Source: Thermodesulfovibrionia bacterium (lineage in GTDB: Bacteria > Nitrospirota > Thermodesulfovibrionia > JACRGW01). Taken from it: DNA of 64,000 nucleotides. This document shows positions 2,463 through 43,120 of this stretch, piece after piece; the first letter of the stretch is position 1; each line of letters starts with the position of its first letter. The position numbers and the translations under genes were made by a program. The notes under the pieces are model-generated. The model made no database searches. It saw only the letters and a list, made by a program, of their open reading frames with translations, and was not told the origin of the DNA. The stretch lies in assembly GCA_919902995.1 (NCBI GenBank), contig CAKKSD010000032.1:20336-84335 (forward strand), read 5' to 3'.

Positions 2463-2812
2463 TGGTGGAGGCGGCGGGAATTGAACCCGCGTCCGGAAAC
2501 CTTCAGACATAGGTCTCTACATGCTTATTCCCGATATTGATTCTCGCCTCATCAAACGCCCCGGGAAAGGCTCCTGAGTCGGCCAGTCTGTTAATTCTTA
2601 CCTCTCTGCTACAGACAAAGCAGAAAGGCCAGCCTGATTTATGACGCCTTGGTGGCTGCTCAGACAACAACCATTAGGCGCGCTGCTTTAATTAAGCAGC
2701 GAGTGCCAGTTCTTGATTGGCAGTTAAATGTTTCCCATGTGTTTTACGAGTTTCATGGAACCTCGGCATGCAACCTATAACCTCTCTGTCCCCGTCGAAT
2801 CCTATCGCCCCC
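2463..2812 (-). ncRNA. ssrA: tmRNA (SsrA), tag peptide reading frame ANQELALAA-stop
   Basis: Minus strand 5' GGGGGCGATAGGATTCGACGGGG ... and 3' end GCGGGTTCAATTCCCGCCGCCTCCACCA (tRNA-Ala-like acceptor, CCA encoded). Internal ORF GCC AAT CAA GAA CTG GCA CTC GCT GCT TAA. Adjacent to smpB. Confidence 0.85.
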
Positions 2813-14062: not shown

Positions 14063-14359
14063 ATGAAGAAGTTATTTGCTATATCTTTATTTTTGGGGTT
14101 TATAGTCTATCCGTATTTATCTGAACCTTCAGACACATTTGATAACCATTTTGATAAAGGTTTGACTTATTACCAAAAGAGGAATTTTAAGATGGCCATA
14201 AAGGAGTTTGATGAAGCCCTCAAGATTGACCCCAATGTAGCTAAGGTTTACTACTATATGGGTTATGCAAAATATAAGAAAAAAGACTTCAAGGGTGCTA
14301 TTAAGGATTTTAACAAGGTCTATAGCCTTGATCAAAATTATTCCCCATTCCTAAAGTAG
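14063..14359 (+). CDS. TPR-repeat lipoprotein/secreted protein
   Basis: Signal peptide MKKLFAISLFLGFIV, then two TPR units (AIKEFDEALKIDPNVAKVYYYMGYA..). RBS aaaggag ahead of ATG 14063. Confidence 0.6.
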   Translation: MKKLFAISLFLGFIVYPYLSEPSDTFDNHFDKGLTYYQKRNFKMAIKEFDEALKIDPNVAKVYYYMGYAKYKKKDFKGAIKDFNKVYSLDQNYSPFLK

Positions 14360-14387
14360 GAAGGATGGGGGAAACTACATTTTTTTC

Positions 14388-14474
14388 TGGTGCCGAAGGG
14401 GGGAGTCGAACCCCCACAGGGTTACCCCCACTAGACCCTGAACCTAGCGTGTCTACCAATTCCACCACTTCGGC
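14388..14474 (-). tRNA. tRNA-Leu (anticodon CAG), long variable arm
   Basis: Reverse complement GCCGAAGTGGTGGAATTGGTAGACACGCTAGGTTCAGGGTCTAGTGGGGGTAACCCTGTGGGGGTTCGACTCCCCCCTTCGGCACCA. Anticodon loop UUCAGGG; CCA encoded. Confidence 0.85.
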
Positions 14475-14555
14475 TTTATTGAATCTTATCCTCTTATCCT
14501 CCTAAAGTCAATCTCATCATTACAATTTACCTCTTATTATCCCGGATTTCTCTTA

Positions 14556-14650
14556 CAAAGCGAAAAATCGCAAAACCCTAGGTAGGGGAGGCTTTAGCCT
14601 CCCCTAAAAAAGATTTTATTTTTAAATGGGCGACTAAAGTCGCCCCTACC
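14556..14650. repeat. Nested perfect palindromes (taggggaggc-ttta-gcctccccta; gggcgact-aa-agtcgccc; outer ggtagggg/cccctacc)
   Basis: 10-bp and 8-bp perfect stems enclosed by an 8-bp outer complement, on the 5' side of tRNA-Leu (minus strand). Confidence 0.5.
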
Positions 14651-14760
14651 CATTTAAGTACAATAGCATTAGAGAGAAGTTTAGATGACAGATAAGAGGG
14701 AAATTCAACTCCGAAAGGCATCCCAAATCTCCTTGACAAATATGGGTTATTGGGATACTT

Positions 14761-14880
14761 TAGGGTTTGGGATTCGAGGCTTTAGACGATACATGATCCA
14801 TGATGCCAGATGCATTATTCTGTATCCTCTATCCTGAATCGTGTATCCTGTATAACCTGACTATTTGCCTCCCTTGAATT
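14761..14880. repeat. TGTATCC / CATGATGC short-repeat cluster upstream of the mgtE-like gene
   Basis: gatacatgatccatgatgccagatgcatt ... tgtatcctctatcctgaatcgtgtatcctgtat. Related clusters at 39342-39420 and 40918-41045. Confidence 0.55.
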
Positions 14881-14904
14881 CCTGTATTTTCATAGGAGTT
14901 GAAA

Positions 14905-16158
14905 ATGACTTTCATTGGAGAAATCTTTGTAGGTGAAGTCCTTAATAAACCTGTACTCGATCCATCGGGAGAGGAAATAGGAAGGGTAAAGGACCTTTTA
15001 GTCTCAATCGGTGAACCTTTTCCTCAGGTAACTTCCCTTATAATTAAAAGAAAGAAAAGGGAACTCATCGTTCCCTGGGACAGTATAAACATCTTCAACA
15101 GAAAGGTAATCTCTTCTAGGATCTTCAAAGAGGAACTAAAAGAATACTTAACCTCTGAAATAGATATACTTATAGGTAGAGACATTCTTGATAAACAGAT
15201 TGTAGATATCAACGGTGTTAAGGTAGTAAGGGTAAATGATATTAGACTCGGGGAGTTCGATGAAAAGCCATGTCTGGTAGCGGTGGATATAGGAATGAGA
15301 GGGATTCTCAGGCGTCTTGGGTTAGAAAGAAGGGGAGAAGGAATTGGAATGGCGATTGGATACCCTTTGAAACATAACCTCATAGGCTGGAATTATATTC
15401 AACCTATAGAGCCGAGACTCACCCGTCTTACCCTTACAATTCCAAGAAAATCTGTGGCTACACTCCACCCTGCAGATATAGCCCACATAATAAGCCAGGT
15501 ATCAATGAAAGATAGGGCAGTCCTCTTTGATTCCCTTGACCTCGACACAGCAGCAGAGGCACTGCCTGAACTTGAACCTGATGTTCAGACCTCAATTATA
15601 AATCAGATGGGTAAAGAACAGGCATCTGATCTCCTTGAGCAGATGTCCCCTGATGAGGCGGCAGATATCATCGGTGACCTTTCTCCGGAGAAGGCAAAAG
15701 AGATCCTTGAACTTATGGAAGAGGAAGATGCTGAAAATGTTCAGGAGTTACTAAGCCACGATGAGGACACTGCAGGAGGCTTAATGACTACAGAATATAT
15801 CGCTTATCATTCTGGCCTATCTGTAGGTGATACTATTGAAAGATTCAAAAGGGATGCATCAGATATCGATACTGTTTATTACATCTATATACTGGATGAA
15901 GAGGAAAGGCTAATAGGGGTTATCTCCCTGAGAGATCTTCTTCTATCTAATACCGATAGTCTTCTCTCAGAGGTCATGACAAGGAAGGTTAAGACTATAA
16001 CCCCTGAGACAGACCAAAAACAGGTGGCAAAGATTATATCCAAGTATAATCTTGTGTCGCTCCCTGTCGTAGATGAGCATAACAGACTCCTGGGAGTAGT
16101 AACCATTGATGATGTGATAAATATCTTTATGCCTAAAAGGAAAAAACCGAGGGTGTGA
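14905..16158 (+). CDS. MgtE-type cytosolic regulatory protein: PRC-barrel + MgtE N-domain + CBS pair, no transmembrane pore
   Basis: MgtE_N acidic helix bundle (DEAADIIGDLSPEKAKEILELMEEEDAENVQELL), two CBS motifs, ends MPKRKKPRV with no TM helices. RBS aggag ahead of ATG 14905 (ORF-track start 14899 is TTG). Confidence 0.75.
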   Translation: MTFIGEIFVGEVLNKPVLDPSGEEIGRVKDLLVSIGEPFPQVTSLIIKRKKRELIVPWDSINIFNRKVISSRIFKEELKEYLTSEIDILIGRDILDKQIVDINGVKVVRVNDIRLGEFDEKPCLVAVDIGMRGILRRLGLERRGEGIGMAIGYPLKHNLIGWNYIQPIEPRLTRLTLTIPRKSVATLHPADIAHIISQVSMKDRAVLFDSLDLDTAAEALPELEPDVQTSIINQMGKEQASDLLEQMSPDEAADIIGDLSPEKAKEILELMEEEDAENVQELLSHDEDTAGGLMTTEYIAYHSGLSVGDTIERFKRDASDIDTVYYIYILDEEERLIGVISLRDLLLSNTDSLLSEVMTRKVKTITPETDQKQVAKIISKYNLVSLPVVDEHNRLLGVVTIDDVINIFMPKRKKPRV

Positions 16159-16159
16159 G

Positions 16160-17386
16160 ATGTTTGAAAGAAGAAGAATATTACTCTTCCTTGCGGTGAT
16201 CGGCCCCGGAATCATTACAGCAAATGTTGATAATGATGCCGGTGGTATTGCAACCTATTCAGTTGCAGGGGCAAGGTTCGGATACAGCCTCCTCTGGGTA
16301 TTGATCCCTACGACGATCGCACTTATCGTTATCCAGGAGATGGTGGCAAGGATGGGGGTTGTAACAGGCAAAGGTCTGTCAGAACTTATAAGGGAGGAGT
16401 ACGGGGTTAAGTCTGCCTTCTTTATAATGCTTGCCCTTCTTGTTGCAAACTTCGGAACTACGATAGCAGAATTTGCCGGATGGGCCGCAAGCATGGAGGT
16501 TTTTGGAATGACAAGGTATATAACAGTCCCTTTCATGGCCCTGTCCATATGGTTCCTCGTAATAAAGGGCAGTTTCAGAATTGTCGAAAGGGTACTCCTT
16601 GTAGCATGTCTTCTTTACATGGGTTATATCATATCGGGATTCCTTTCGAGACCTGACTGGTTAAAGGTAGCAACACATACATTTATACCAACATTCAAAT
16701 GGGACAGGGATTTTATAATGCTGACAATAGCGATCATTGGCACAACCATAACTCCCTGGATGCAGTTCTATCTCCAGTCGTCTATAGCTGAGAAGGGTAT
16801 AAAGAAGGAGCAATATAAGACTTCGAGGCTCGATGTTATTATAGGGTGTTCGATGACTGATATTATAGCCTTTTTTATTATAGTTACCTGTGCCACAACT
16901 CTTTTTCCCTTAGGTATAAGGATAAACGATGCCTCCGAAGCAGCAATCGCACTGAAGCCACTGGCAGGAGAGTATGCCTCCACCCTTTTTGCTATAAGTC
17001 TTGCTAATGCATCAGTTCTCGGAGCAATAATAGTCCCATTAGCCACAGCCTATTATATCTGTGAGGCAATGGGATGGGAGGCAGGTGTGAACAAGACCTT
17101 TAAAGAGGCACCGCAGTTCATGGGGATCTATACCGCCCTGATACTCATTTCTGCATTGATAATTCTGATACCAAAGGCGCCACTTGTCCTTCTTATGGTT
17201 TTATCTTCTGTCCTCAATGGTATTATTCTTCCCTTTATACTTATTTTTGCGGTTCTCCTCGTAAACAACAGGAACATTATGGGAGAGTATGTAAACTCGA
17301 AGGAATATAACTATATTGCATGGGGGACAGTGGTGGTTATGATAAGTTTGACCATAGCACTGTTTATTACAATGTTCTATCGTTAG
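16160..17386 (+). CDS. NRAMP/SLC11-family permease with non-canonical metal site (candidate NRAMP-related Mg2+ transporter)
   Basis: GPGIITANVDNDAGGIATYSVAGARFGY aligns to the NRAMP TM1 motif with DPGN replaced by DAGG; TM6 MPH replaced by TPW. ATG is 1 nt after the upstream stop. Confidence 0.8.
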   Translation: MFERRRILLFLAVIGPGIITANVDNDAGGIATYSVAGARFGYSLLWVLIPTTIALIVIQEMVARMGVVTGKGLSELIREEYGVKSAFFIMLALLVANFGTTIAEFAGWAASMEVFGMTRYITVPFMALSIWFLVIKGSFRIVERVLLVACLLYMGYIISGFLSRPDWLKVATHTFIPTFKWDRDFIMLTIAIIGTTITPWMQFYLQSSIAEKGIKKEQYKTSRLDVIIGCSMTDIIAFFIIVTCATTLFPLGIRINDASEAAIALKPLAGEYASTLFAISLANASVLGAIIVPLATAYYICEAMGWEAGVNKTFKEAPQFMGIYTALILISALIILIPKAPLVLLMVLSSVLNGIILPFILIFAVLLVNNRNIMGEYVNSKEYNYIAWGTVVVMISLTIALFITMFYR

Positions 17387-17404: not shown

Positions 17405-18028
17405 TTGTTAAAAAGTATATTCGCTAAGAAACAGGATTTCTTCGGACTCTTTGAAAGTGCATCAAAAAACCTCCATGAAGGTGCCAGACTCCTAAAGGAG
17501 TTGATGGAGGACTATACAAACGCTGAGGAGAAGACAAAGAGGATCTTCAATGTAGAGAATGAAGGTGATCTGATCACCCATGAGACGATTAAGCGGTTAA
17601 ACAAAACCTTCATAACCCCCATAGACAGGGAGGATATCCATGCCCTTATATGTAGACTCGATGATATTCTCGATCTTATCGATGGAACAGCTGATAGGAT
17701 GCTTGTCTTCAAGGTAAAGGAACCAACAACTGAGGCCGTAACCATGTCAAGGATTATATTTACTACTACAGAGGCTATTTCGAAGGCCCTATCCTATCTG
17801 AAAGAGAAGAATTATAGCTATATCAATGAATACTGCATAAAAATTAATCAACTCGAGAATGAAGAAGATAGGGTATACAGAGATGCGTTAGGAAATCTTT
17901 TCGACGCGGAGAAAGATCCTATGATAGTAATAAAATGGAGGGAAATCTATAAGAATATGGAAGATGCTATGGATAAGTGTGAGGATGTAGCTAATATACT
18001 TGAAGGTATAGTGCTGAAGCATGCCTGA
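17405..18028 (+). CDS. DUF47 (PhoU-like, Pit accessory) protein
   Basis: 207 aa helical protein. TTG start with ggagg RBS. Overlaps PiT start by 8 nt, the classic DUF47-PiT arrangement. Confidence 0.7.
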   Translation: MLKSIFAKKQDFFGLFESASKNLHEGARLLKELMEDYTNAEEKTKRIFNVENEGDLITHETIKRLNKTFITPIDREDIHALICRLDDILDLIDGTADRMLVFKVKEPTTEAVTMSRIIFTTTEAISKALSYLKEKNYSYINEYCIKINQLENEEDRVYRDALGNLFDAEKDPMIVIKWREIYKNMEDAMDKCEDVANILEGIVLKHA

Positions 18029-19028
18029 ATTGATCATTATAATCATCATTGTCTTTCTGGCCTTAGCCTTCGATGTAAGTAATGGATGGAATGACTCAGC
18101 TAACGCCATAGCAACAGTCGTCTCAACCAGAGTTCTCAGCCCAGTAGTTGCTGTAGTTATGGCAGCTGTAATGAATATCCTCGGTGCATTTTTTACAACA
18201 GCCGTTGCAAAGACCATAGGAACAGGAATTGTTGACCCCTCTGCAGTAATCCAGCCTGTAGTTGCAGCAGCCCTTCTTTCCGGATTTATCTGGAATGGTC
18301 TCATGACACTTTTGGGAATGCCTGTTAGCGCTTCTCATGCCCTCATCGGAAGTCTAATCGGTGCGGCTGTGGCCTATGGAGGAATTAATATCCTGAATCT
18401 AAAGGGACTCACAAAAATATTTTCTTCCCTGCTTCTATCGCCTCTTTTCGGTTTCATAATAGGAATCCTCTTTATGCTCCTGATCCTTAAGTTCTTCGGA
18501 AATTTTTCTTCAGGATTTGTGAATAAACATTTCGGCAGGCTTCAGATACTTTCATCAAGCTTTATGGCTTTCAGTCATGGCAGTAACGATGCCCAGAAGG
18601 TAATGGGAATAATCACCCTTGCCCTTGTTAGCGGTGGATTCATAAAGAGTGTTGATGTTCCTTTCTGGGTTATGCTGATATGCGCTGTTGCTATGGGTTT
18701 AGGTACAGCCTTAGGTGGATGGAAGGTTATAAAGACACTCGGTATGGGAATGCTTAAGCTCCAGCCAATCCATGGCTTTGCTGCTGAGACTTCTGCTACA
18801 TTGATCATTCTGACCTCAAGCCATTTTGGCTTTCCTGTTAGCACAACCCATGTGATCTCTACGTCTATTATGGGGGTTGGTGCAACAAAGAGGCTCAGTG
18901 CTGTGAGATGGGGAATAGCAGGGAAAATAGTGCTGGCATGGATATTTACTCTTCCCTTATGTAGTATAATGGCATGGCTGATCTGTAAAGGATTTCTACT
19001 TATAAAGTCCCAGGGGCTTTTATTCTAA
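18021..19028 (+). CDS. Inorganic phosphate transporter, PiT/PHO4 family
   Basis: NGWNDSANAIATVVSTR and HGSNDAQKVMG signature pair of the PHO4 family. Confidence 0.85.
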   Translation: MPELIIIIIIVFLALAFDVSNGWNDSANAIATVVSTRVLSPVVAVVMAAVMNILGAFFTTAVAKTIGTGIVDPSAVIQPVVAAALLSGFIWNGLMTLLGMPVSASHALIGSLIGAAVAYGGINILNLKGLTKIFSSLLLSPLFGFIIGILFMLLILKFFGNFSSGFVNKHFGRLQILSSSFMAFSHGSNDAQKVMGIITLALVSGGFIKSVDVPFWVMLICAVAMGLGTALGGWKVIKTLGMGMLKLQPIHGFAAETSATLIILTSSHFGFPVSTTHVISTSIMGVGATKRLSAVRWGIAGKIVLAWIFTLPLCSIMAWLICKGFLLIKSQGLLF

Positions 19029-19061
19029 TCTACCGCACACAGAGTGCGTTTACATTATTGA

Positions 19062-29585: not shown

Positions 29586-30410
29586 TCATAGAGGTTTCTC
29601 GTTTAGAAGGTCAATGAAAGTCTGGATTGTTGTCAGTTTTCCTTCGGATTGCGTATAGAGCTTCGAAGAAAATATTGCCGTTGCTGTATGGCCGACTAAA
29701 AGATTGAAGAGTTCATAGTCAACATTTATAAAGCCCTTTTTCTGTATAAGGAGTGAATAGATTGCTATTACTCCTATTACTTTTTCTTTGATCTTAAGGG
29801 GTATGCAGACTACTGGTTTAGAGAGGTCTTTTGAGGTGCGTCCTGGAACAAGTTCTTCAAAGTAACTTTCTCCTGTTATTACTACCTCTCCTATAATCCC
29901 TTCTCCAGACTTTACTTTAGGGATATCTTCCTTATTAAGTCCCTCAGAGGCGATCACTTTTAGCTCTTCTGTCGTTTCATCCACAATCATAATAGCAAAT
30001 CTTTCAGCCCCGATGAGATTTGATACTATCTCGATAACAGTTCTTAATACCTCATTAAAATCGAGTGTGGAGTGGAGCTGGTAGCTTGCCACATACAGGT
30101 TAGCAAGATTATTATTCTCCTCTTCTACATCCAGATATTTAGCAGCAAAGTCTTTATTCTCTGCCTCCACCTGTCTATACCTCTCTTGAATCTCTTTCTT
30201 CTCTTTCTCTAAGATACGACTACGCTCCTCAAGGAATTTTACCCTGTTCTTACCCCTTTCCTTCAGTTCTTCCTCAAGCTCAACCAATTTAAACCTTAAC
30301 CTCTCATTCTCTTTAAGAAGTTCCTGTGTAAATTCCTCACCTTTTCTGAATATCTGAAGGAACTCCTCAGACTTTTTCTGAATTTTGCCTTCTTCTTTTC
30401 TGAGTCCCAA
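29586..30410 (-). CDS. Coiled-coil + GAF domain protein
   Basis: N-terminal about 100 aa heptad-rich (LKENERLRFKLVELEEELKE..), C-terminal GAF-like fold (FAIMIVDETTEELKVIASEG ... VCIPLKIKEKVIGVIAIYS). Confidence 0.55.
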   Translation of the reverse strand: MGLRKEEGKIQKKSEEFLQIFRKGEEFTQELLKENERLRFKLVELEEELKERGKNRVKFLEERSRILEKEKKEIQERYRQVEAENKDFAAKYLDVEEENNNLANLYVASYQLHSTLDFNEVLRTVIEIVSNLIGAERFAIMIVDETTEELKVIASEGLNKEDIPKVKSGEGIIGEVVITGESYFEELVPGRTSKDLSKPVVCIPLKIKEKVIGVIAIYSLLIQKKGFINVDYELFNLLVGHTATAIFSSKLYTQSEGKLTTIQTFIDLLNEKPL

Positions 30411-30437
30411 GTTATACCTCCCCTTTTAGTACCAAAT

Positions 30438-30508
30438 AGAGATTGCTTTGGCTCCGCCTCGCAATGACAGATAGGGAGCGTCATTCCGAGCGAAGCGAGG
30501 AATCTCGT
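30438..30508. repeat. Family B palindromic repeat (diverged copy)
   Basis: gagattgctttggctccgcctcgcaatgaca ... gtcattccgagcgaagcgaggaatctc. Confidence 0.6.
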
Positions 30509-30511
30509 TAT

Positions 30512-31576
30512 TTATTTCTCCTCCGTCATACACCTCTTGATAATTTCCTCAGGTATTTCCTTCAACGGGAGTATCTTATCAGCAGCCCCTGCAGTTATAA
30601 CCTCCTGTGGCATCCCAAATACAACAGAGGTTTCCTCAGACTCTACAATGGTCTGACCCTTATGCTCTTTTATCGCCTTCATACCATCCTTCCCATCGTT
30701 TCCCATTCCTGTAAGAATAACACCAAGTACCTTTCTTCCATAAACTGCTGCGGAAGACTTCATCATCAGATCTACCGAAGGGACATACTTATCAGTATTA
30801 CTTTTCCTTCTTAGTATTGTCTTAATATTTTCTCCCTTCTTTTCCAGGACCATATGATAACCTCCAGGTGCTATAAGAATCTTCCCCCTTTCAACAGTAT
30901 CTTCATCCTCGGCCTCTTTTACATAGAGGGGAGATATGGTATCAAGTCTTTCAGCAAAATGTTTTGTGAATCCTTCAGGCATATGCTGGGATATAACGAT
31001 CCCTGCAGGAAGGTTTTTCGGGAGTCTCAAAAGGATTGCCTGAATTGCAGGAGGTCCACCTGTTGATGCACCGATCGCAATAAGTTCAACTCCCTTTGGC
31101 TCAGGAAATACCTCTTCAACCTCTCTATACTTACTGCTATCACTCGTAAGGAGATCAAGATTAGCCTTCATCTTAGACATTTCAAGATGTGCGACTGCGC
31201 CAATCTTCTCTATAAGTTCATCTTTGATCTTCTGCAGTTCAGGTGATGCCCTGGCTGTCGGCTTTAAAATAAAATCTACTGCACCAAGCTCAAATGCCTT
31301 AAGGAAACTCCTGTCATCCGCGTAGAAGCTTACTACTATGACAGGTAGAGGGGATTCTTTCATTACCCATCTAAGGAAAGCGAAGCCATCCATAACCGGC
31401 ATCGCTAAATCGAGTGTCACTACATCAGGCTTGAATTTTATCACCCTTGACATCGCCTCCTTACCGTTAGAAGCGGTGCCGATTACATCGATAAAGGATG
31501 TCTGCTGAAGCATCCTTGTTATTGTCTGGCGGCTATACGGAGAGTCATCTACAACAAGAACCCTTATCTTCTCCAT
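30512..31576 (-). CDS. cheB: Protein-glutamate methylesterase/glutaminase CheB (REC + methylesterase)
   Basis: N-terminal receiver plus C-terminal CheB catalytic domain (GASTGGP ... HMPEGFT ... DGKDG). Confidence 0.9.
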   Translation of the reverse strand: MEKIRVLVVDDSPYSRQTITRMLQQTSFIDVIGTASNGKEAMSRVIKFKPDVVTLDLAMPVMDGFAFLRWVMKESPLPVIVVSFYADDRSFLKAFELGAVDFILKPTARASPELQKIKDELIEKIGAVAHLEMSKMKANLDLLTSDSSKYREVEEVFPEPKGVELIAIGASTGGPPAIQAILLRLPKNLPAGIVISQHMPEGFTKHFAERLDTISPLYVKEAEDEDTVERGKILIAPGGYHMVLEKKGENIKTILRRKSNTDKYVPSVDLMMKSSAAVYGRKVLGVILTGMGNDGKDGMKAIKEHKGQTIVESEETSVVFGMPQEVITAGAADKILPLKEIPEEIIKRCMTEEK

Positions 31577-32448
31577 CCCATCTCTCCTGTTAATACCGAT
31601 CTGGTGGGTTTCTGGTAAACAAGGTCATTCTTGAAATGCCTCAGCATGAAGTCTGTAGAAATATTCATTAAAGACTCGGAGTGACCTAAAAGGAGATAAC
31701 CCTCTTCTGTGAGTCTATCATAAAAATTATTGATTACCTTCTTCTTCGTGTCCCTGTCAAAATATATAATTACATTCCTGCAGAATATCACATCCATCTT
31801 ACCAACAAATCTTACCTTGAACGGATCTACGAGATTCAGAAGACTGAAGTTCACCAAACTCCTTACAGGATCCACAATTCTGTAATTCCCTTCTCCCTCG
31901 TCTGTGAAATACTTTCTGATATAATGATCATCTATACTTCTGAAGGCGTTCTTTCTGTAAATTCCTCTCCTTGCTGCATGAAGAACCCTCTGGTTTATAT
32001 CACTCCCCAGTATCTCTATCTCCCATTCAGGCATGAGATTTTTCTCAAGGATCAATATCGCAATTGTATAAGGCTCTTCACCTGTAGAACAACCTGCTGA
32101 CCATATCCTGAGTCTTTTTCTATCCTTCTTCCTCTCACCGATTTCAGGGATGATCTCATCGCTTAATGCCTTAAGCTGAGAGAACTCTCTAAAGAAGTAG
32201 GTCTCATTTACTGTCAGAATTTCTATTACCGATGTCAGCTCTTCATCTCTTCTTTTATCATACATCAAAAAATGGTAATAATCCTCAAAGTTATTTAAGA
32301 GATAATTCTCTACCCTCCTCGATAGTCTCTTCTCTAGGAGGAATTTGGATCCATCGTCGAAATATATTCCACAATAATTCCTTATAAAATCACGGATGAG
32401 CCTGAATGTATCATCAGACATCTTGAACGGCTCCTCTATCCCTATCAT
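31564..32448 (-). CDS. cheR: Chemotaxis protein methyltransferase CheR
   Basis: 294 aa; CheR N-terminal helical domain and SAM MTase domain (RIWSAGCSTGEEPY). Confidence 0.9.
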   Translation of the reverse strand: MIGIEEPFKMSDDTFRLIRDFIRNYCGIYFDDGSKFLLEKRLSRRVENYLLNNFEDYYHFLMYDKRRDEELTSVIEILTVNETYFFREFSQLKALSDEIIPEIGERKKDRKRLRIWSAGCSTGEEPYTIAILILEKNLMPEWEIEILGSDINQRVLHAARRGIYRKNAFRSIDDHYIRKYFTDEGEGNYRIVDPVRSLVNFSLLNLVDPFKVRFVGKMDVIFCRNVIIYFDRDTKKKVINNFYDRLTEEGYLLLGHSESLMNISTDFMLRHFKNDLVYQKPTRSVLTGEMGWRR

Positions 32449-34445
32449 TTCTTTCCTTTAAGTATATCATCCGCTGTCTTTCTGACCACTTCGTCTTCAT
32501 CTGTCTCAGCTACTTTAACGATATATTCTTTAACCTCCTTCTCAGAAAATCTCCCCAATATTTCCAATGCTGCCTTCCTTACACCCCAGTCTCTATCCGA
32601 AAGAAGAGGGAGAAGCTCCTTTAAGATTTCAATAGCCTGAACCTGATTAAAGGCCAGTTTAGAAAGTGTTCTGATGGTGATCTTTTTTAGTTCAGGGTCT
32701 TTTTCTCTAAGTAGTCTTAAGAGGTACGGAAGTGCTGACATATCTCTTATCTCTCCCAATGCCTCGATTACAGAGATCCTTACCATGTGGTCTTTATCAT
32801 CAAGGAGTTCGATAAGCGGAAGGACGGCATCTGGATTCTTAAGTTTTCCAATACCTCTTGCAACTGATGCTCTTACCCTGCTATTTTCATCTTTAAGAAG
32901 TATGATAAGGGAATCAATCCCCTTTTTATAACCAATTTCTCCGATGGCAATGGCCGATGCCATTTTTACCCGTGGTTTCTCATCGGTCAAGGCTGAAATT
33001 AAAAATCTTCCTGCCTCATCTCCCCCAATCATACCGAGTGCCTTAACAGCCGCCTCCCTTACTTCAGGTGATTCATCTTTGATAACAAAGCCAAGGGCTG
33101 AGACCGCCTTCTTCGCCCTTATCCTGCCTAAGATCAGGGCTATATTCTTTCTAAGATTTGATACCTTTGAAGAAAGCATAGGAAGGAGTTGTTCTACCTC
33201 AGCCCCTATCTCGACTATGGCAGTTACGGCAGATTCCTGGACATCATCGTATTCATCATTAAGGAAATCCATGAGTGGGGTTATAGCCCTTCTATCCTTT
33301 ATCTTCCCTAAGGCTATCATTGAGTTTCCCCGTACATGCCCGTCTTCATCAGATAGGGATTTTATCAGTGCCTCAACAGCATTACTATCACCTATCTCTC
33401 CTAAGAGATGGGATATACATCTCCTGATAATATTATCTGGGCTATCTAAGAAAGGGATAAGGGCATGGATAACACCACCCCTTCCGAGAATTAAGAGTGC
33501 CTCCATTATATCTTCTTGAAGTTCGTCTTCCTGGAGAAGATTTACAAGTGGCTCAACAGCCCTTTCATCCCCCACCCATCCTAAAAGCCTTACGGATGCT
33601 AATTTTATCTGAGCCTTCTCTCTTTTGAGTGACTGGAGCAGATAGTCTGATATCTCTCTATCAATATTTTCCTTTATAATTGTGATGACCTCATTATCCC
33701 GAGGGTTTTTCTTAGAAATATCTAAAATAACCTGCATTGCGATTTCTCTGATTGACCTCGAAGGATCCTTCAAGAATTTTATAACCGGAGCCAGTGCCCT
33801 TTTATCCCCAAGGGCACCAAGACCTTTTAAGGCTGCCTCTCTCAGTGGTTTCTCTTTAAGGGCATCAAGAAGTGGCTCGAGAACCCTTGAATCTCCAATA
33901 TTACCGATTGCAATAGCAGCAGGATAGCTAAGCCAGAGTTCCTTCTTTTTAAATATCTTCAAAAGGGGCTCTATTGCCTTCTCATCTCTCATCCTACCGA
34001 TATGTTCTATTGCAGAGAATCTGACATTATCATCCCTATCTGTTAATGCCTTAATAAAGAGAGGAGTAGCCATACTATCTCCAACTTCTCCAAGTATATC
34101 GACGATGAATTTTCTGACATCTTGATGAGCGTCCTCAAAACTGTTTATAAGAAATGGAACTCCCTCTTTACCTATCCCTATGAGTGCCTCAATAGCAGAA
34201 TTTCTCACCCCCGGGTTATCCTGAATACTAAGAGCTGAGATAAGGGCATCTATCACCCTTTTACCACCGATCTTGAGGAATGATTCAACAGAGGTCTTCC
34301 TGACACGCCAATCAGCATCTCCCAAGGTCTTAAGGAGGTGAGGGATAGATTCCTCACCATAATCAGCAAGCCCCAGGGAAGCTAATCTTCTTGTTTCCAC
34401 ATTTTCATCATCAAGGTTTTTTATCAGATCGGCGAAACTATCCAA
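32445..34445 (-). CDS. HEAT/PBS-lyase repeat protein (about 20 repeats)
   Basis: 666 aa of tandem about 31-aa units (VRxxAxxALGxIGDxxAVxxLxxLLxD). Embedded in the che operon. Confidence 0.75.
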   Translation of the reverse strand: MDSFADLIKNLDDENVETRRLASLGLADYGEESIPHLLKTLGDADWRVRKTSVESFLKIGGKRVIDALISALSIQDNPGVRNSAIEALIGIGKEGVPFLINSFEDAHQDVRKFIVDILGEVGDSMATPLFIKALTDRDDNVRFSAIEHIGRMRDEKAIEPLLKIFKKKELWLSYPAAIAIGNIGDSRVLEPLLDALKEKPLREAALKGLGALGDKRALAPVIKFLKDPSRSIREIAMQVILDISKKNPRDNEVITIIKENIDREISDYLLQSLKREKAQIKLASVRLLGWVGDERAVEPLVNLLQEDELQEDIMEALLILGRGGVIHALIPFLDSPDNIIRRCISHLLGEIGDSNAVEALIKSLSDEDGHVRGNSMIALGKIKDRRAITPLMDFLNDEYDDVQESAVTAIVEIGAEVEQLLPMLSSKVSNLRKNIALILGRIRAKKAVSALGFVIKDESPEVREAAVKALGMIGGDEAGRFLISALTDEKPRVKMASAIAIGEIGYKKGIDSLIILLKDENSRVRASVARGIGKLKNPDAVLPLIELLDDKDHMVRISVIEALGEIRDMSALPYLLRLLREKDPELKKITIRTLSKLAFNQVQAIEILKELLPLLSDRDWGVRKAALEILGRFSEKEVKEYIVKVAETDEDEVVRKTADDILKGKK

Positions 34446-34469
34446 GATTTTTTCTCCTAAATACTCTCT

Positions 34470-34610
34470 GTCATTCCTGCGGAAGCAGGAATCCAGAGAA
34501 ACAAAAAACTGGATTCCGCATCAAGTGTCGAAGACCCGACCCATAGGGCGGAATGACAGAAATAAGGTAACCCTGTAGCAAGCTACAGGGAATTATCAAG
34601 TTGATTAAAT
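34470..34610. repeat. REP-like cluster (gtcattcctgcggaagcaggaatccag; ctggattccgcatcaag..ggcggaatgac; ccctgtagcaagctacaggg + ggaattatcaagtt)
   Basis: Family A members plus a tail motif shared with 6150-6200. Confidence 0.7.
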
Positions 34611-34624
34611 CCGTGAAATCAATC

Positions 34625-35098
34625 TTATGCCTTTTCAGTATCTTCTATTGATTCAAGAACAAGCATCTCTTCGGTAGAGAGGATCTTATCGAGATTCAGT
34701 ATTATTATTAACTTTTCCCCTACCTTTCCAACACCTTCGAGATATTCGGTTTTTATTCCCTTAACGATAGTTGGGGGAGACACTATATCTTCCCTTGAGA
34801 GACAGCGTACATCACTTATTCCATCCACCTGAAGTCCAACTATCTCTTCCCCTACCCGGATTAATAATATCCGTTCATTCCCATGTCTGTCAGTAGGTTC
34901 AATACCGAATCTTTTTCTGAGATCTACTATAGGGATAACCTTTCCTCTCAGGTTTAACACCCCCTCTATAAAATCCGGACTCATAGGAAGTCTTGTTACC
35001 TTTTGTGGTCTAAGAATCTCAACCACTCTCATTATATCTATCGCATATTCCTCTTCACCTACGGAAAAAATAGCTAATCTGGTTTCTTGATCTTCCAT
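34625..35098 (-). CDS. cheW: Chemotaxis coupling protein CheW
   Basis: 157 aa single CheW domain. Confidence 0.9.
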   Translation of the reverse strand: MEDQETRLAIFSVGEEEYAIDIMRVVEILRPQKVTRLPMSPDFIEGVLNLRGKVIPIVDLRKRFGIEPTDRHGNERILLIRVGEEIVGLQVDGISDVRCLSREDIVSPPTIVKGIKTEYLEGVGKVGEKLIIILNLDKILSTEEMLVLESIEDTEKA

Positions 35099-35115
35099 AT
35101 AAATCAGTCCTTGAG

Positions 35116-36810
35116 TTATTTTACCTTAAATACCTCAACTACTCTTTTCAGGTCTTCAGCATCCTTCCTGATGCCATTCATAGCAAGATCTATCTCTGAG
35201 GCTATATCCATTCCTTCCACAGCCACGGTCTTAACCTCGTCGATAGACCGAAGGATGGATTCAGTCCCGATTCTCTGTTCTTCTGTTGCCTTTGATATTA
35301 GCCGTGTCTTCTCCACAGTACTTTCAACAACTGAGCCTATCTGCCTGCTCCCACTTGACTGGTCTTCCATAGCCTTTTTCACATGTTTAGATATACTATC
35401 TACAACCTCCATTGCCTTCACAATCTGGTCTGTCCCGTTCCTGAGTTCACGGATTGCATTCGCAATATTAACTATCATATCTTTTACTCTTTCAACAGAT
35501 TCAGTCACCTGTTTCACACCCCGCGCCTGTTCAACAGCTGCCCCTTCTATGCCCTTTGCTGCAACCTGGGACTGTTGTGAAGAATGGATGATCGTCCTTA
35601 AGGCATCACCTACTGCGTAAACCAGTTTATTACCATCATCTACCCTTATAAGACCTTCCTTCATTATATCCACAGTATCCTGTGTCTCCTGCTGGATCGT
35701 AACTATCAGATCGGATATCTCCTTTGTAGAAGCAGAAGTCTTCTCTGCAAGTTCCCTGATCTCTTCTGCCACAACAGAAAAACTTTTACCGTGTTCCCCT
35801 GCCTGGGCAGCCAAGATTGCTGCGTTTAATGCCAGGAGGTTTGTCCTGGAGGTTACTGCATCAATAACAGCAACGATCTTATTTATCTCCAATGATCTCT
35901 CTTTCAGGCGGTTTACAGAATCCCCTGCTTTTTTAACGGAATCTCTAACCCTGTCCGTACCATCTATAGCATCAACAATAGAGAGCATTCCGAACTCCGA
36001 TGCATCAATAAGAACCTTCTCTGCAAGCCTTGCGGATTCCTTTGTGTTATCTACTACGGTTCCTATAGCGGCATTAATCTCTAATGTGGCTGCCCCTGTC
36101 TCTGATATAGTCTCTTCCAGGAACTCTGCACTTCTTGCAAGTTCTCTGGCAGAAGCCACCATCTCCTCTATGGAAGCCAATGTTTCAGAGATTGTATCTG
36201 AAAGTCTGAAGGTATTTTCGGCAACCTCTTCTATCGAGGAACCTATCTCAAGTACAGAAGATGAAGTTTCATCTGCAGATGTAGAAAGTGTAGATACAGA
36301 GTTTGCAATTTCCCTGATAGAAAAATTTAACTCCTCTACTGAGGAAGCGGTCTTCTCAACAGCCTCAACCTGGCTCCTTGCACCTTCCGCCATTCTCTTA
36401 GAGTTAAGTCCTATTTGTCCAGATGCAATTGAAACATTAACAGCAGATGTCTTGACCTTTCTTACTAACTCACCGAAATTTTCGATTATTCTGTTTATCG
36501 CCCTCTCTATATATGTAAACTCATCACCCGAATTAATCTTTATCATAGTTGTAAGGTCTCCCTCAGAAACCTTCTTGGTAGCCTCAACCACTTTTCCCAA
36601 TGGTTTTATCACTGCCTTCCTCAACAGAACCTGAAGTGCCACTGCCAAGAAGATCACACCTGCAAAAGCTATAAGTATAAGTTGTGGTATATTCTTCTTC
36701 AGTTCCAATGCTAAGACTATAAGGAAGCCCATCTCGATACATAGGATTGCAACTGTTAGAAAGAATAATTTTCCTGCTAATTTTCCTTTAAAGCTTCCAG
36801 GTTCCGCCAT
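35116..36810 (-). CDS. Methyl-accepting chemotaxis protein (2 TM, no periplasmic sensor, HAMP + MCP signalling)
   Basis: MCP signature NLLALNAAILAAQAGEHGKSFSVVAEEIRELAEKT. Confidence 0.85.
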   Translation of the reverse strand: MAEPGSFKGKLAGKLFFLTVAILCIEMGFLIVLALELKKNIPQLILIAFAGVIFLAVALQVLLRKAVIKPLGKVVEATKKVSEGDLTTMIKINSGDEFTYIERAINRIIENFGELVRKVKTSAVNVSIASGQIGLNSKRMAEGARSQVEAVEKTASSVEELNFSIREIANSVSTLSTSADETSSSVLEIGSSIEEVAENTFRLSDTISETLASIEEMVASARELARSAEFLEETISETGAATLEINAAIGTVVDNTKESARLAEKVLIDASEFGMLSIVDAIDGTDRVRDSVKKAGDSVNRLKERSLEINKIVAVIDAVTSRTNLLALNAAILAAQAGEHGKSFSVVAEEIRELAEKTSASTKEISDLIVTIQQETQDTVDIMKEGLIRVDDGNKLVYAVGDALRTIIHSSQQSQVAAKGIEGAAVEQARGVKQVTESVERVKDMIVNIANAIRELRNGTDQIVKAMEVVDSISKHVKKAMEDQSSGSRQIGSVVESTVEKTRLISKATEEQRIGTESILRSIDEVKTVAVEGMDIASEIDLAMNGIRKDAEDLKRVVEVFKVK

Positions 36811-36851
36811 CGCAACTTTCCTCCAATCGGTTCTCCTAAAAAACCGTTAAT

Positions 36852-39341: not shown

Positions 39342-39420
39342 GATCCATGATACATGATGTCTGAAAGTTTCGTGTATCTTGTATCATGCATCTTGTATCC
39401 CTTTCCTTATATCTTCATGA
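39342..39420. repeat. TGTATC/CATGAT short-repeat cluster upstream of the MCP-PhnD gene
   Basis: gatacatgatccatgatacatgatg ... gtgtatcttgtatcatgcatcttgtatccc. Confidence 0.55.
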
Positions 39421-40090
39421 CCTCTTCGATATTAAGGAGGCCAATGAATCTATCATCCACCAGGCTTATCCCTTCGAGAAAGTCTGCCTCTATACCTGTG
39501 ATAATAGTAGGAGTAGAATCTATAGACTCCCTAAGGAGTTTAATGACTCCAAGAACCTCATCAACCACAGCACCTATAGTCTCGTTCCTTATTGAGAATA
39601 TAAGAATTCTTCTCTTTTTATCCTGCTGAATTCCTTCCAGACCCAATCTTTCCTTGAGATCAAAGACAGGGATGATCTCCCCCCTTAAGGATGTTACACC
39701 CTTTAGATAGGAAGGTGTTCTCGGAACAGGTGTTATCTCGAGAGGTTTGAGTATTTCCCTTACATAATCTATCTTCACACCGTAAATCTCATCCCCAAGC
39801 CTGAAGGATATTACCTCAACTATTGACTCTTCTTCGCTGTATGGTAAAGAAGGAATCTCCTGAATCTCTTCCCTCACCTCTTTGGTTAACTCAACCTCGC
39901 CTGATTGTAAAAGTATCACTGTCTCTCCCTTTTCAATTGATATTGCCTCTTCTGTCCTCTTCCCTTCTGCTTGAAGATTTGATTCAGCATCCTCAGTCTT
40001 TCCCCGAACCTCTTTCTGTGTTAAGTCCTGGGGTTTTTCTTCCTTCGCCTTCTCCTGCTGTGCCTTTTTCCTAATATTCACAAGATCCAT
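39407..40090 (-). CDS. CheW-domain protein with about 80-aa charged N-terminal extension
   Basis: C-terminal 150 aa is a CheW fold. N-terminal region is K/E-rich and low complexity. Confidence 0.75.
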   Translation of the reverse strand: MDLVNIRKKAQQEKAKEEKPQDLTQKEVRGKTEDAESNLQAEGKRTEEAISIEKGETVILLQSGEVELTKEVREEIQEIPSLPYSEEESIVEVISFRLGDEIYGVKIDYVREILKPLEITPVPRTPSYLKGVTSLRGEIIPVFDLKERLGLEGIQQDKKRRILIFSIRNETIGAVVDEVLGVIKLLRESIDSTPTIITGIEADFLEGISLVDDRFIGLLNIEEVMKI

Positions 40091-40104
40091 CTAATTCTCC
40101 TTGT

Positions 40105-40917: not shown

Positions 40918-41045
40918 ATCAAAATCCTAGTTCAAAAATGATTCAAGATGCATGATGCCTGATGCACGTATCGTACTTCTGTCATTCTGTATCAGGCATC
41001 TTTTATCGGGCATCCTGCATCCTGTATCGTGCATCTTATTTTAAA
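40918..41045. repeat. CATGATGC / TGTATC repeat cluster with inverted repeat atgcctgat..atcaggcat between cheA and the exeA-like gene
   Basis: gatgcatgatgcctgatgcacg ... ctgtatcaggcatc ... gcatcctgcatcctgtatcgtgcatct. Confidence 0.55.
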
Positions 41046-43070: not shown

Positions 43071-43120
43071 ATACCGAATTTATCATATAACCTCTGGAAT
43101 ATCAATTGAAAAACATTTTT

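What the first reader, a model, noticed from the sequence alone, without database searches (positions are those of the whole stretch)
14905..17386. Pore-less MgtE cytosolic Mg2+-sensor domain protein translationally coupled to an NRAMP permease with an NRMT-like binding site
The first gene has the MgtE N-domain and CBS pair, which in MgtE form the Mg2+-sensing gate, but no transmembrane segment. Its stop overlaps the start of an NRAMP-family gene by 1 nt. In that NRAMP, TM1 DPGN reads DAGG and TM6 MPH reads TPW. These are the kind of substitutions (loss of the Mn-coordinating Asn and Met) reported for NRAMP-related Mg2+ transporters. A free-standing MgtE sensor paired with an NRMT-like transporter would be a modular Mg2+ uptake system with a trans-acting gate, which I am not aware of being described.
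Basis: partly seen in the sequence, partly recalled or inferred. Interest (0 to 1): 0.72.

Follow-up and report, generated by a model that had tools for sequence, protein, structure and literature searches.

The report
Known NRMT transporter with MgtE-like partner
This is an ordinary example, from a Nitrospirota bacterium, of a gene pair first described in 2014: an NRAMP-related magnesium/manganese transporter and a soluble protein resembling the magnesium-sensing part of the MgtE channel, whose job is still unproven.

Summary
The observation mostly holds. Gene A (14905-16158) has MgtE_N and a CBS pair and no membrane segment. Gene B (16160-17386) is an NRAMP of the NRMT clade: 378 bits to EleNRMT against about 109 to MntH, with DAGG in TM1 and TTITPW in TM6.

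- **Two corrections.** The genes do not overlap; one base separates them (TGA-g-ATG).
- **Not new.** Shin et al. 2014 (PMC4072509) reported that most NrmT genes sit beside a gene for an MgtE cytoplasmic-domain homologue and proposed feedback regulation. Their one co-expression test showed no effect.
- **Census.** 62 of about 73 informative NRMT-anchored loci carry the partner, and 64 of 68 partner-anchored loci carry NRMT, across many phyla including archaea.
- **What I add.**
  - The MgtE Mg4 and Mg6 acidic residues are conserved in the partner. Mg5 and the plug-helix sites are lost.
  - The second PRC barrel is the most conserved part of the partner.
  - The same head occurs on full-length MgtE channels in Ktedonobacteria.
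  - The window's subclade replaces the TM10 Gln of EleNRMT with Ser and has no M-box riboswitch.

Function as a trans gate remains an inference. This is a new member of a known kind, of low to moderate interest.

The parts
14733..14759 (+). Promoter-like block (TTGACA 14733-14738; GATACT 14754-14759 or TACTTT 14756-14761) upstream of the sensor gene
   Evidence: A 50-nt block is almost identical in the window and in relatives L081, L083 and L084, while the flanks diverge. The simple consensus scan did not list it. It is inferred, not shown.
14766..14904 (+). Putative 5' leader of about 140 nt, pyrimidine-rich with repeated TATCCT units and a CCTCC just upstream of the AGGAG ribosome-binding site
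   Evidence: It folds at -40.3 kcal/mol, z = -3.65 against shuffles. No Rfam family matches, including M-box, even at E <= 10. Its function is unknown.
14905..16158 (+). Sensor/partner gene: 417-aa soluble protein made of tandem PRC barrels, an MgtE N domain and a CBS pair. It has no plug helix and no membrane domain.
   Evidence: Pfam and NCBIfam. PDB best hits are MgtE cytosolic domains 2YVY/2YVX at E 1e-42. AF2 model and Foldseek. No hydrophobic segment.
14920..15129 (+). PRC barrel 1 (aa 6-75)
15166..15324 (+). PRC barrel 2 plus helix (aa 88-140), with the family's most conserved motif: LDKQIVDxxGxKVVRVND ... VDxGxRGxxRRLG
15445..15768 (+). MgtE N domain (aa 181-288), carrying E218, D250 and D254, the equivalents of TtMgtE E59 (Mg7), D91 (Mg4) and D95 (Mg6)
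   Evidence: Alignment to 2YVY. Site assignments from PMC5882242. Conservation in 61 partners: D250 53/61, D254 58/61, E218 34/61.
15787..16128 (+). CBS pair (aa 295-408). D403 equals TtMgtE D247 (Mg4) and is kept. N382 and N406 equal D226 and D250 (Mg5) and are lost. R343, D344 and L383 equal the ATP-site residues R187, D188 and F227.
16149..16155 (+). GAGGGTG Shine-Dalgarno sequence for the permease, inside the last codons of the sensor gene. The sensor stop is at 16156-16158, then one spacer base, then ATG at 16160.
   Evidence: Read directly from the sequence.
16160..17386 (+). NRMT-clade SLC11/NRAMP permease, 408 aa. Site residues are D26, G29, E104, T195, T198, W200 and S350.
   Evidence: Pfam Nramp E 1e-102. 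EleNRMT 7QIA E 3.6e-112 (378 bits) against MntH about 1e-30. Site table.
17405..19028 (+). DUF47/PhoU_div gene (17405-18028) and PiT/PHO4 phosphate permease gene (18021-19028). They are probably co-transcribed here but are not part of the conserved unit.
   Evidence: Pfam. No terminator-like site between 17386 and 17405; one follows at 19034-19048. Neither gene appears near NRMT in any of 80 genome loci. The closest relatives have a Kup gene on the other strand in this position.

Best explanation
The locus is a two-gene NrmT/NRMT system of the kind Shin et al. described in 2014.

**Shown or near-certain**
- Gene B is a proton-uncoupled, NRAMP-related divalent-cation uptake carrier of the EleNRMT clade. 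Its substrate is Mg2+ and/or Mn2+.
- Gene A is a soluble homologue of the whole cytoplasmic part of a PRC-headed MgtE channel: two PRC barrels, the MgtE N domain and a CBS pair. It ends exactly where the plug helix and pore would begin.
- I put the identity of the parts at about 0.95.

**Inferred mechanism**
- The partner dimerises through its CBS pairs, as MgtE does.
- When cytoplasmic Mg2+ (or another divalent ion) is high, the ion binds the conserved acidic cluster between the N domain and the CBS domain (D250 and D403, the Mg4 site; D254, the Mg6 site).
- This clamps the partner into a compact state, which docks on the cytoplasmic face of the NRMT and slows uptake. At low Mg2+ it opens and releases the carrier.
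- The two proteins are made together from one message. The permease's ribosome-binding site lies inside the end of gene A and only one base separates the genes.
- I put this gating mechanism at about 0.4.
For: **Identity of the permease**
- 378 bits to EleNRMT against about 109 to MntH.
- TM1 Asn replaced by Gly, TM6 Ala by Thr, TM6 Met lost, TM6b His replaced by Trp, and TM3 proton-pathway Asp replaced by Thr.

**Identity of the partner**
-.
- It is colinear over 427 residues (36% identity, E 8e-96) with the cytoplasmic part of a 656-aa PRC-MgtE channel that has the PF01769 pore.

**Linkage**
- NRMT-anchored: 57 of 80 loci have the partner immediately upstream on the same strand, 5 more have it nearby, and about 11 have none.
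- Partner-anchored: 64 of 68 loci have an adjacent NRMT, 58 co-directional and 6 convergent.
- The loci span Nitrospirota, Desulfobacterota, Acidobacteriota, Omnitrophota, Planctomycetota, Firmicutes, Actinomycetota and archaea.

**Sensing**
- The Mg4 and Mg6 ligands are kept in 53-58 of 61 partners. Mutating them stops MgtE from closing (PMC5882242).
- The sites that need the plug helix (Mg2, Mg3, Mg5) are absent or lost. That fits a sensor that kept the N-CBS clamp and dropped the coupling to its own pore.

**Link to Mg2+ in the family**
- M-box riboswitches precede the operon in 4 of 11 diverse loci, as Shin et al. reported.

**Possible docking site**
- Trp306, in the conserved CEAxGWEAGV loop between TM8 and TM9 (cytoplasmic by standard NRAMP topology), is present in 46 of 62 partner-associated NRMTs and 0 of 11 partner-less ones. 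This count is not corrected for phylogeny.
Against: - No physical interaction has been shown anywhere.
- Co-expression of A. capsulatum ACP2976 with ACP2977 did not change rescue of a Mg2+-transport mutant. That transporter looked mainly Mn2+-specific.
  - The assay measured rescue at low Mg2+, where a feedback inhibitor would be expected to be idle, so this is weak evidence against gating.
- NrmT genes alone complement a Mg2+-transport mutant, and EleNRMT was characterised as a purified transporter in a paper that never mentions a partner. The partner is therefore not required for transport.
- Six loci have the genes convergent, so coupled translation is not essential.
- The PRC head also occurs on covalent MgtE channels, so it is not an NRMT-specific adaptor.
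- The window's subclade has Ser in place of the TM10 Gln that EleNRMT needs, often lacks the TM3 Glu, and has no M-box in the window or in 11 relatives. Mg2+ as its substrate rests on homology alone.
- The Mg7 ligand is only moderately conserved (34/61).
Confidence: 0.5

Rival explanations
1. The pair is a Mn2+ (or other transition-metal) uptake system rather than a Mg2+ system. The partner then senses Mn2+ or another divalent ion. Alternatively it reports energy state through adenine-nucleotide binding to its CBS pair.
For: - The A. capsulatum NrmT, which has a partner, fully rescued a Mn2+-transport mutant and only weakly rescued a Mg2+ mutant.
- EleNRMT transports Mn2+ as well as Mg2+.
- The window's subclade has a changed site (T198, S350, often N or D at position 104) and no M-box.
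- The ATP-site Arg of MgtE (R187) is kept as R343 in the window and in 40 of 61 partners.
Against: - The acidic N-CBS cluster is the same one that binds Mg2+ in MgtE.
- M-box riboswitches control partner-NRMT operons in other phyla.
- The adenine-stacking Phe227 of MgtE is Leu in 45 of 61 partners, and F227A abolishes ATP binding in MgtE.
- Thr195, which EleNRMT needs for Mg2+ transport, is invariant.
Confidence: 0.25
2. The partner is not an inhibitor. It would instead be a positive factor: a metal chaperone that takes the ion from the carrier's inner vestibule, or an assembly, stability or localisation factor that acts through its PRC-barrel head.
For: - Shin et al. offered the chaperone idea as an alternative.
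- PRC barrels in other proteins are protein-protein docking modules: reaction-centre H subunit, RimM, and the archaeal CdpB1/B2 division proteins.
- The most conserved part of the partner is PRC barrel 2, not the MgtE-like part.
Against: - NRMTs work without the partner in heterologous hosts, and EleNRMT was characterised on its own.
- Co-expression did not improve rescue.
- In MgtE the homologous domain is an inhibitory sensor.
- Free cytoplasmic Mg2+ is kept at about 0.5-2 mM, which makes a chaperone for it unlikely.
Confidence: 0.15
3. The two proteins never touch. The adjacency would reflect only shared regulation of two independent Mg2+-homeostasis functions, with the partner regulating some other target.
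For: - No interaction data exist.
- Convergent arrangements occur.
- About 15% of NRMT loci lack the partner.
Against: - Reciprocal adjacency of about 85-94% across bacterial and archaeal phyla, usually with overlapping or near-abutting stop and start codons. That is typical of subunits of one complex.
- Apart from four loci where no NRMT was seen (three of them with under 700 nt of downstream DNA), the only alternative context found for this head is covalent fusion to a transporter pore.
Confidence: 0.08
4. Gene A is a decaying remnant of a split MgtE gene, and the pairing is a chance event in this genome.
For: Databases often name such proteins 'magnesium transporter MgtE, partial'.
Against: - The reading frame is intact, and homologues of 417-420 aa are 56-99% identical across hundreds of metagenomes.
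- The same architecture is found next to NRMT across many phyla.
- Functional residues are conserved.
Confidence: 0.01

Closest known systems
NrmT plus 'MgtE-like fragment' operons (Shin et al. 2014, PLoS Genet, PMC4072509): C. acetobutylicum Ca_c0685 operon and A. capsulatum ACP2976/ACP2977
   Same: The gene pair and gene order are the same: a soluble MgtE cytoplasmic-domain homologue directly upstream of an NRAMP-related transporter. The feedback-regulation hypothesis is also the same.
   Different: - The window has no M-box riboswitch.
- The 2014 paper calls the partner a 'small protein' and never mentions the PRC-barrel half. Here the PRC half makes up 45% of a 417-aa protein and is its most conserved part.
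- The window's permease belongs to a Nitrospirota subclade with Thr at the Met position and Ser at the TM10 Gln position.
EleNRMT (Eggerthella lenta NRMT; PDB 7QIA, 7QIC, 7QJI, 7QJJ; Ramanadane et al. 2022, PMC8806188)
   Same: - 46% identity over the full length, with no gaps in the aligned core.
- Shared residues: D55/D26, G58/G29, E133/E104, T224/T195, W229/W200.
- The proton-pathway residues are lost in both.
   Different: - A227 is Thr198 in the window.
- Q379, whose mutation strongly compromises transport, is Ser350.
- The eLife paper does not discuss any partner protein.
MgtE Mg2+ channel (T. thermophilus; PDB 2YVX, 2YVY, 2ZY9, 5X9G)
   Same: - N domain and CBS pair at about 35% identity, E 1e-42, with a Foldseek top hit.
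- The Mg4, Mg6 and Mg7 ligands are present.
   Different: - No plug helix and no five-helix pore domain, so sites Mg1-Mg3 are absent.
- The Mg5 ligands are Asn.
- There are an extra 185 N-terminal residues.
- It scores below the TIGR00400 cut-off. It is not a transporter, despite database names.
PRC-MgtE full-length channels of Ktedonobacteria (for example L161 and Ktedonosporobacter rubrisoli; about 645 aa)
   Same: The tandem-PRC head, including the DKQIVD..G.(K/R)VV(R/K)VND motif, followed by the N domain and CBS pair. It is colinear with the window protein (36% identity, E 8e-96).
   Different: - They carry the plug helix and the PF01769 pore.
- They keep Asp at the Mg5 positions.
- In L161 no NRMT is nearby.
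CdpB1/CdpB2 PRC-barrel heterodimer of archaeal cell division (PDB 8QZO, 8ONW)
   Different: Only 14% identity. Here the two barrels are in one chain. There is no evidence of any role in cell division. This is a resemblance of fold only.

Membership tests
NRMT clade of SLC11/NRAMP (Nramp-related Mg2+ transporters) | Nramp (PF01566) fold, with closer similarity to characterised NRMT than to canonical MntH/DMT | tested here: met
   PF01566 E 1e-102. 7QIA EleNRMT 378.6 bits against the best MntH at 109.5 bits.
NRMT clade of SLC11/NRAMP (Nramp-related Mg2+ transporters) | TM1 D-P-G-N replaced by D-x-G-G (metal-binding Asn replaced by Gly) | tested here: met
   D26-A-G-G29. Gly in 80 of 80 loci and 57 of 72 cluster representatives. 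The definition comes from the EcoDMT N54G conversion and EleNRMT G58.
NRMT clade of SLC11/NRAMP (Nramp-related Mg2+ transporters) | TM6 Ala replaced by Thr (EleNRMT T224, needed for Mg2+ transport) | tested here: met
   T195.
NRMT clade of SLC11/NRAMP (Nramp-related Mg2+ transporters) | TM6 Met replaced by Ala (EleNRMT A227; the EcoDMT M235A conversion) | tested here: inconclusive
   The Met is lost, but the residue is Thr198, not Ala. Among unbiased cluster representatives T (27), A (23) and S (17) are all common. This is a frequent clade variant whose effect on selectivity is unknown.
NRMT clade of SLC11/NRAMP (Nramp-related Mg2+ transporters) | Conserved TM10 Gln (EleNRMT Q379), needed for transport | tested here: not met
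   Ser350. Gln is found in 67 of 80 loci. Ser or Ala occurs only in the Nitrospirota subclade L001-L013 and the window. The Q379 mutation strongly compromises EleNRMT.
NRMT clade of SLC11/NRAMP (Nramp-related Mg2+ transporters) | Loss of the proton-pathway residues of canonical Nramps (TM6b His, TM3 Asp) | tested here: met
   Dra H232 becomes W200, D131 becomes T101, and E124 becomes L94. E134 is kept as E104, as in EleNRMT.
NRMT clade of SLC11/NRAMP (Nramp-related Mg2+ transporters) | Mg2+ transport activity | not testable with these tools
   This needs proteoliposome assays or complementation of a Mg2+-transport mutant.
NrmT-associated MgtE-like ancillary protein (Shin et al. 2014) | Soluble homologue of the MgtE N-terminal cytoplasmic domain, encoded next to an NrmT gene | tested here: met
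   for homology. for adjacency. for conservation of the pairing.
NrmT-associated MgtE-like ancillary protein (Shin et al. 2014) | M-box riboswitch control of the operon (frequent in the family, not universal) | tested here: not met
   No RF00380 match in the window, even at E <= 10 across 14300-15000. None in 11 Nitrospirota loci. Present in 4 of 11 loci from other phyla.
MgtE Mg2+ channel (TIGR00400 / PF01769) | C-terminal five-helix pore domain (PF01769) and plug helix | tested here: not met
   No PF01769 hit. TIGR00400 score 189.9, below the cut-off of 232.75, covering model positions 25-251 only. No hydrophobic segment.
MgtE Mg2+ channel (TIGR00400 / PF01769) | Cytoplasmic Mg2+-site ligands: Mg4 D91/D247, Mg5 D226/D250, Mg6 D95, Mg7 E59 | tested here: inconclusive
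   Mg4 (D250, D403), Mg6 (D254) and Mg7 (E218) are present. Mg5 is N382 and N406, so it is lost. Mg2 and Mg3 lie on the missing plug helix.
PRC-barrel domain (PF05239) | PRC-barrel sequence match and fold | tested here: met

The most novel reading that the evidence does not exclude
The most novel reading has three parts.
- The partner is a detachable gate: the sensor half of a PRC-headed MgtE channel, used to control an unrelated LeuT-fold carrier in trans.
- Docking would involve the conserved second PRC barrel and the NRMT-specific cytoplasmic CEAxGWEAGV loop, where Trp306 tracks the presence of the partner.
- In the window's Thermodesulfovibrionia subclade the ion site has been rebuilt (Thr198 and Ser350, with no TM10 Gln and no M-box). 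The pair may therefore sense and import a different ion, or work over a different concentration range, than EleNRMT-type systems.

The trans-gate idea itself is from 2014. What would be new is its demonstration, the docking geometry, and the divergent subclade.
Probability: 0.2. Interest if true: 0.55.

Novelty: new member of a known kind. Interest (0 to 1): 0.28.

Why it matters
- **Open question.** How NRMT carriers are kept from overloading the cell is unknown. They are proton-uncoupled uniporters for an ion held at millimolar levels. The MgtE-like partner has been the obvious candidate regulator since 2014 and has had only one negative, and weakly informative, test.
- **If it is a trans gate.** It would show that a channel's sensor domain can be transferred as a separate subunit to an unrelated transporter family.
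- **What this window adds.** It is only another example of the pair.
- **What the comparative work adds.** It gives concrete handles for experiments: the conserved D250, D254 and D403 cluster, the invariant DKQIVD...KVVRVND barrel, the Trp306 loop, the PRC-MgtE full-length relatives, and a subclade lacking the TM10 Gln.
- **Annotation.** Proteins of this type are widely labelled 'magnesium transporter MgtE' although they have no pore.

Tried and rejected
1. **Riboswitch or known RNA leader upstream of the operon.** Nothing was found in the window at gathering thresholds or at E <= 10, and nothing in 11 Nitrospirota relatives. M-box is present only in other phyla.
2. **Natural sensor-NRMT fusions as evidence of contact.** P0167 and P0226 show CBS and Nramp in one chain. 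Their linkers are Arg/Pro-rich, out-of-frame-looking sequence in fragmentary high-GC contigs, so I treat them as frameshift or gene-calling artefacts. Long ORFs spanning both genes in L024 and L065 come from open alternative frames.
3. **A four-gene Mg/phosphate operon with the downstream DUF47 and PiT genes.** This is not conserved. None of 80 loci has these genes near NRMT, and the nearest relatives have Kup there instead.
4. **First full-length AF2 model.** The second barrel came out at low confidence (pLDDT 42-63). A more diverse N-terminal alignment resolved it.
5. **Search with the N-terminal module alone for other domain contexts.** It returned only fragments of the same family. The one different context, a full-length MgtE, came from the metagenome locus scan.
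6. **Pseudogene or remnant reading of gene A.** Rejected.
7. **Later literature.** Ramanadane 2022, Cellier 2022, a 2022 Mg-transporter review and the 2026 BfraNramp preprint were checked for follow-up on the partner. None mentions it.


Full report
**1. What is in the sequence**

The stated interval holds two same-strand genes.

Gene A:
- It starts at ATG 14905, with an AGGAG six bases upstream. A TTG at 14899 is in frame, but homologues are 417-420 aa.
- It ends with TGA at 16156-16158.
- Pfam finds a PRC barrel (residues 8-71), MgtE_N (189-290, E 8e-29) and two CBS domains (E 4e-22).
- NCBIfam's mgtE model aligns only over positions 25-251 of 450 and scores below its cut-off.
- No 19-residue window is hydrophobic enough for a membrane helix.

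Gene B:
- It starts at ATG 16160 and ends at 17386.
- It matches Pfam Nramp at E 1e-102.

The junction reads GTG-TGA-g-ATG. There is no earlier in-frame start. A GAGGGTG ribosome-binding site lies in the last codons of gene A.

**2. The permease is an NRMT**

- Against all PDB sequences the best match is EleNRMT (7QIA; E 3.6e-112, 378 bits, aligned over the full length without gaps). Canonical MntH proteins score about 109 bits.
- Ramanadane et al. 2022 define the NRMT site by three changes relative to canonical transporters: Asn to Gly in TM1, and Ala to Thr and Met to Ala in TM6. They show that T224 is needed for Mg2+ transport and that mutating Q379 strongly compromises transport.
- The window protein has D26, G29, T195 and W200, and lacks the proton-pathway residues. 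This matches EleNRMT.
- It differs at two positions. The Met position is Thr198 (Ala in EleNRMT), and the TM10 Gln is Ser350.
- Among 72 cluster representatives from an unbiased search of 1.84 billion proteins, T, A and S are all common at the Met position. Ser or Ala at the Gln position is confined to the window and loci L001-L013, a Nitrospirota/Thermodesulfovibrionia subclade that also often has Ser at position 28 and Asn or Asp at the TM3 Glu.
However, this protein is a divergent NRMT, and its substrate cannot be read off from EleNRMT.

**3. The pairing is real, widespread and already published**

- Shin et al. [quoted passage not shown]
- They proposed that it gives cytoplasmic feedback regulation or acts as a chaperone.
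- They found that co-expressing the A. capsulatum partner did not change complementation, and that this transporter looked mainly Mn2+-specific.
- Later papers on NRMT and Slc11 that I checked do not mention the partner.

I repeated the census in both directions.

Anchored on NRMT (at least 597 matching stretches in one-genome-per-species contigs; best 80 loci examined):
- 57 loci have the partner immediately upstream on the same strand.
- 3 have it on the opposite strand, and 2 have it further away.
- 3 have it cut by a contig end, and 1 has it frameshifted.
- About 11 have none, and 5 lack upstream DNA.

Anchored on the partner's N-terminal module in metagenome contigs (at least 587 hits; best 80 examined). 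Of the 68 loci with at least 300 nt of downstream DNA:
- 58 have NRMT downstream on the same strand.
- 6 have NRMT convergent, within 5-85 nt.
- 4 have none.

The loci come from Nitrospirota, Desulfobacterota, Acidobacteriota, Omnitrophota, Planctomycetota, Firmicutes, Actinomycetota, Spirochaetota, Zixibacteria and archaea.

**4. Anatomy of the partner beyond the published description**

*(a) The N-terminal 185 residues.* The 2014 paper does not mention them.
- With a diverse alignment they fold confidently (pLDDT 84.9, pTM 0.81) into two beta-barrels.
- Every partner found has this head.
- The second barrel carries the most conserved motif of the whole protein (LDKQIVDxxGxKVVRVND ... VDxGxRGxxRRLG). 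Mean identity to distant phyla is 50% there, against 27-41% for the other regions.

*(b) The MgtE-like half.* It aligns to T. thermophilus MgtE residues 22-252. Site assignments are from Maruyama et al. 2018.
- Mg4 (D91/D247) corresponds to D250 and D403, each kept in 53 of 61 partners.
- Mg6 (D95) corresponds to D254, kept in 58 of 61.
- Mg7 (E59) corresponds to E218, kept in 34 of 61.
- Mg5 (D226/D250) corresponds to N382 and N406. The first position is Asn in 40 of 61.
- Mg2 and Mg3 lie on the missing plug helix.
- In MgtE, mutating Mg4 or Mg6 prevents closure.
- At the MgtE ATP site, R187 is kept (R343) but the adenine-stacking F227 is Leu in most partners.

*(c) The same head on complete MgtE channels.*
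- L161 (Ktedonobacteraceae) encodes a 656-aa protein with PRC, MgtE_N, CBS and the PF01769 pore, and no NRMT nearby.
- At least 120 such proteins of about 645 aa exist in Ktedonobacteria.
- The window protein is colinear with the cytoplasmic part of L161 (36% identity over 427 residues, E 8e-96). It stops where the plug helix begins. L161 keeps Asp at both Mg5 positions.
- The partner is therefore best described as a PRC-headed MgtE without its plug and pore.

**5. Regulation and surroundings**

- No Rfam family, including M-box, matches the 430-nt upstream region or 11 Nitrospirota relatives.
- M-box aptamers precede the operon in 4 of 11 loci from other phyla, in agreement with Shin et al.
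- A promoter-like block (TTGACA 14733-14738) is conserved among close relatives. It would leave a structured leader of about 140 nt (z = -3.65).
- The downstream DUF47-PiT pair may be co-transcribed here, since there is no terminator until 19034. It is absent from all 80 other loci and is replaced by Kup in the nearest relatives.

**6. Mechanism**

Shown:
- the identities of the two proteins;
- their tight and reciprocal genomic linkage;
- retention of the N-CBS acidic clamp residues;
- loss of the pore-coupling elements.

Inferred:
- The partner dimerises and closes on binding cytoplasmic Mg2+.
- In that state it docks on the carrier's cytoplasmic face to limit uptake.

A lead for the docking site is Trp306, in the NRMT-specific TM8-9 loop. 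It is present in 46 of 62 partner-associated carriers and 0 of 11 partner-less ones. This count is not corrected for phylogeny, and 16 exceptions exist.

Arguments against gating:
- The only published co-expression test was negative. It measured low-Mg2+ rescue, where a feedback inhibitor should be inactive.
- NRMTs function alone.
- Some loci have the genes convergent.
- The PRC head is not NRMT-specific.

I put the gating mechanism at about 0.4 and the identity of the parts at about 0.95.

**7. Verdict**

Its central novelty claim is wrong. The locus is a new member of a known, under-studied kind of system. The still-open function of the partner gives it modest interest.

Noticed in passing
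window 16160-17386 (residues T198, S350); loci L001-L013: A Nitrospirota/Thermodesulfovibrionia NRMT subclade replaces the TM10 Gln with Ser or Ala. The equivalent Q379 mutation strongly compromises EleNRMT. The subclade always has Thr at the Met position and often lacks the TM3 Glu (Asn, Asp or Gly). This suggests a rebuilt ion site.
   Followed up: partly
L161 2484-4454 (Ktedonobacteraceae metagenome contig) and proteins P0360-P0479: Full-length MgtE channels of about 645 aa carry the same tandem PRC-barrel head as the NRMT partner, including the DKQIVD...VVxVND motif. I found no description of this architecture in the papers I read.
   Followed up: partly
NRMT residue 306 (window 17075-17077), in the CEAMGWEAGV loop: Trp306 in the cytoplasmic TM8-9 loop is present in 46 of 62 NRMTs that have a partner gene and in 0 of 11 that lack one (Fisher p 4e-6, not corrected for phylogeny).
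   Followed up: partly
L040, L048, L061, L067; L015, L019, L020: Partner-less NRMTs fall into clades. One is a 'DPGG...T..T' group, which in L061 and L067 sits directly downstream of a second NRMT paralogue. Another is the Magnetobacterium/Magnetominusculus group. In L026 (Peptococcaceae) an M-box sits directly upstream of an NRMT that has no partner.
   Followed up: no
window 14573-14660: Two GC-rich hairpins (GGTAGGGGAGGCTTTAGCCTCCCCTA and GGGCGACTAAAGTCGCCCCTACC) flank an A/T-rich spacer, between tRNA-Leu(CAG) (14388-14474, minus strand) and the operon promoter. The 116-nt region folds at -38.9 kcal/mol, z = -5.0. There are only sub-threshold Rfam hits. It may be a bidirectional terminator or a small repeat element.
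   Followed up: partly
window 14766-14904: The putative 5' leader of the operon is structured (z = -3.65) and pyrimidine-rich. It has repeated TATCCT units and a CCTCC that could pair with the AGGAG ribosome-binding site. It matches no known RNA family.
   Followed up: partly
window 17405-19028: A DUF47/PhoU_div gene and a PiT (PHO4) phosphate permease gene overlap by 8 nt and follow the NRMT gene after an 18-nt gap. The nearest relatives (79% identical partner protein) have a Kup K+ transporter on the opposite strand in this position, while the flanking Usp and TauE genes are conserved. This looks like a local gene replacement.
   Followed up: partly
window 49762-49798: A single Rfam CRISPR-DR7 match (42 bits, cut-off 37) lies between rodA and a radical-SAM gene, within an mreB-mreC-pbp2-rodA cluster. 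There is no repeat array and no cas gene nearby. It is probably a chance match or an orphan repeat.
   Followed up: partly
window 2463-2812 (minus strand): A tmRNA gene with tag peptide ANQELALAA.
   Followed up: no
window 30000-44000: A long run of strongly negative GC and AT skew suggests a block of minus-strand genes. The sign switches near 44 kb, where the plus-strand mreB cluster begins.
   Followed up: no
proteins P0010, P0041, P0048, P0091 and others: Public annotations frequently name these pore-less partner proteins 'magnesium transporter' or 'magnesium transporter MgtE'. This is a systematic over-annotation.
   Followed up: yes
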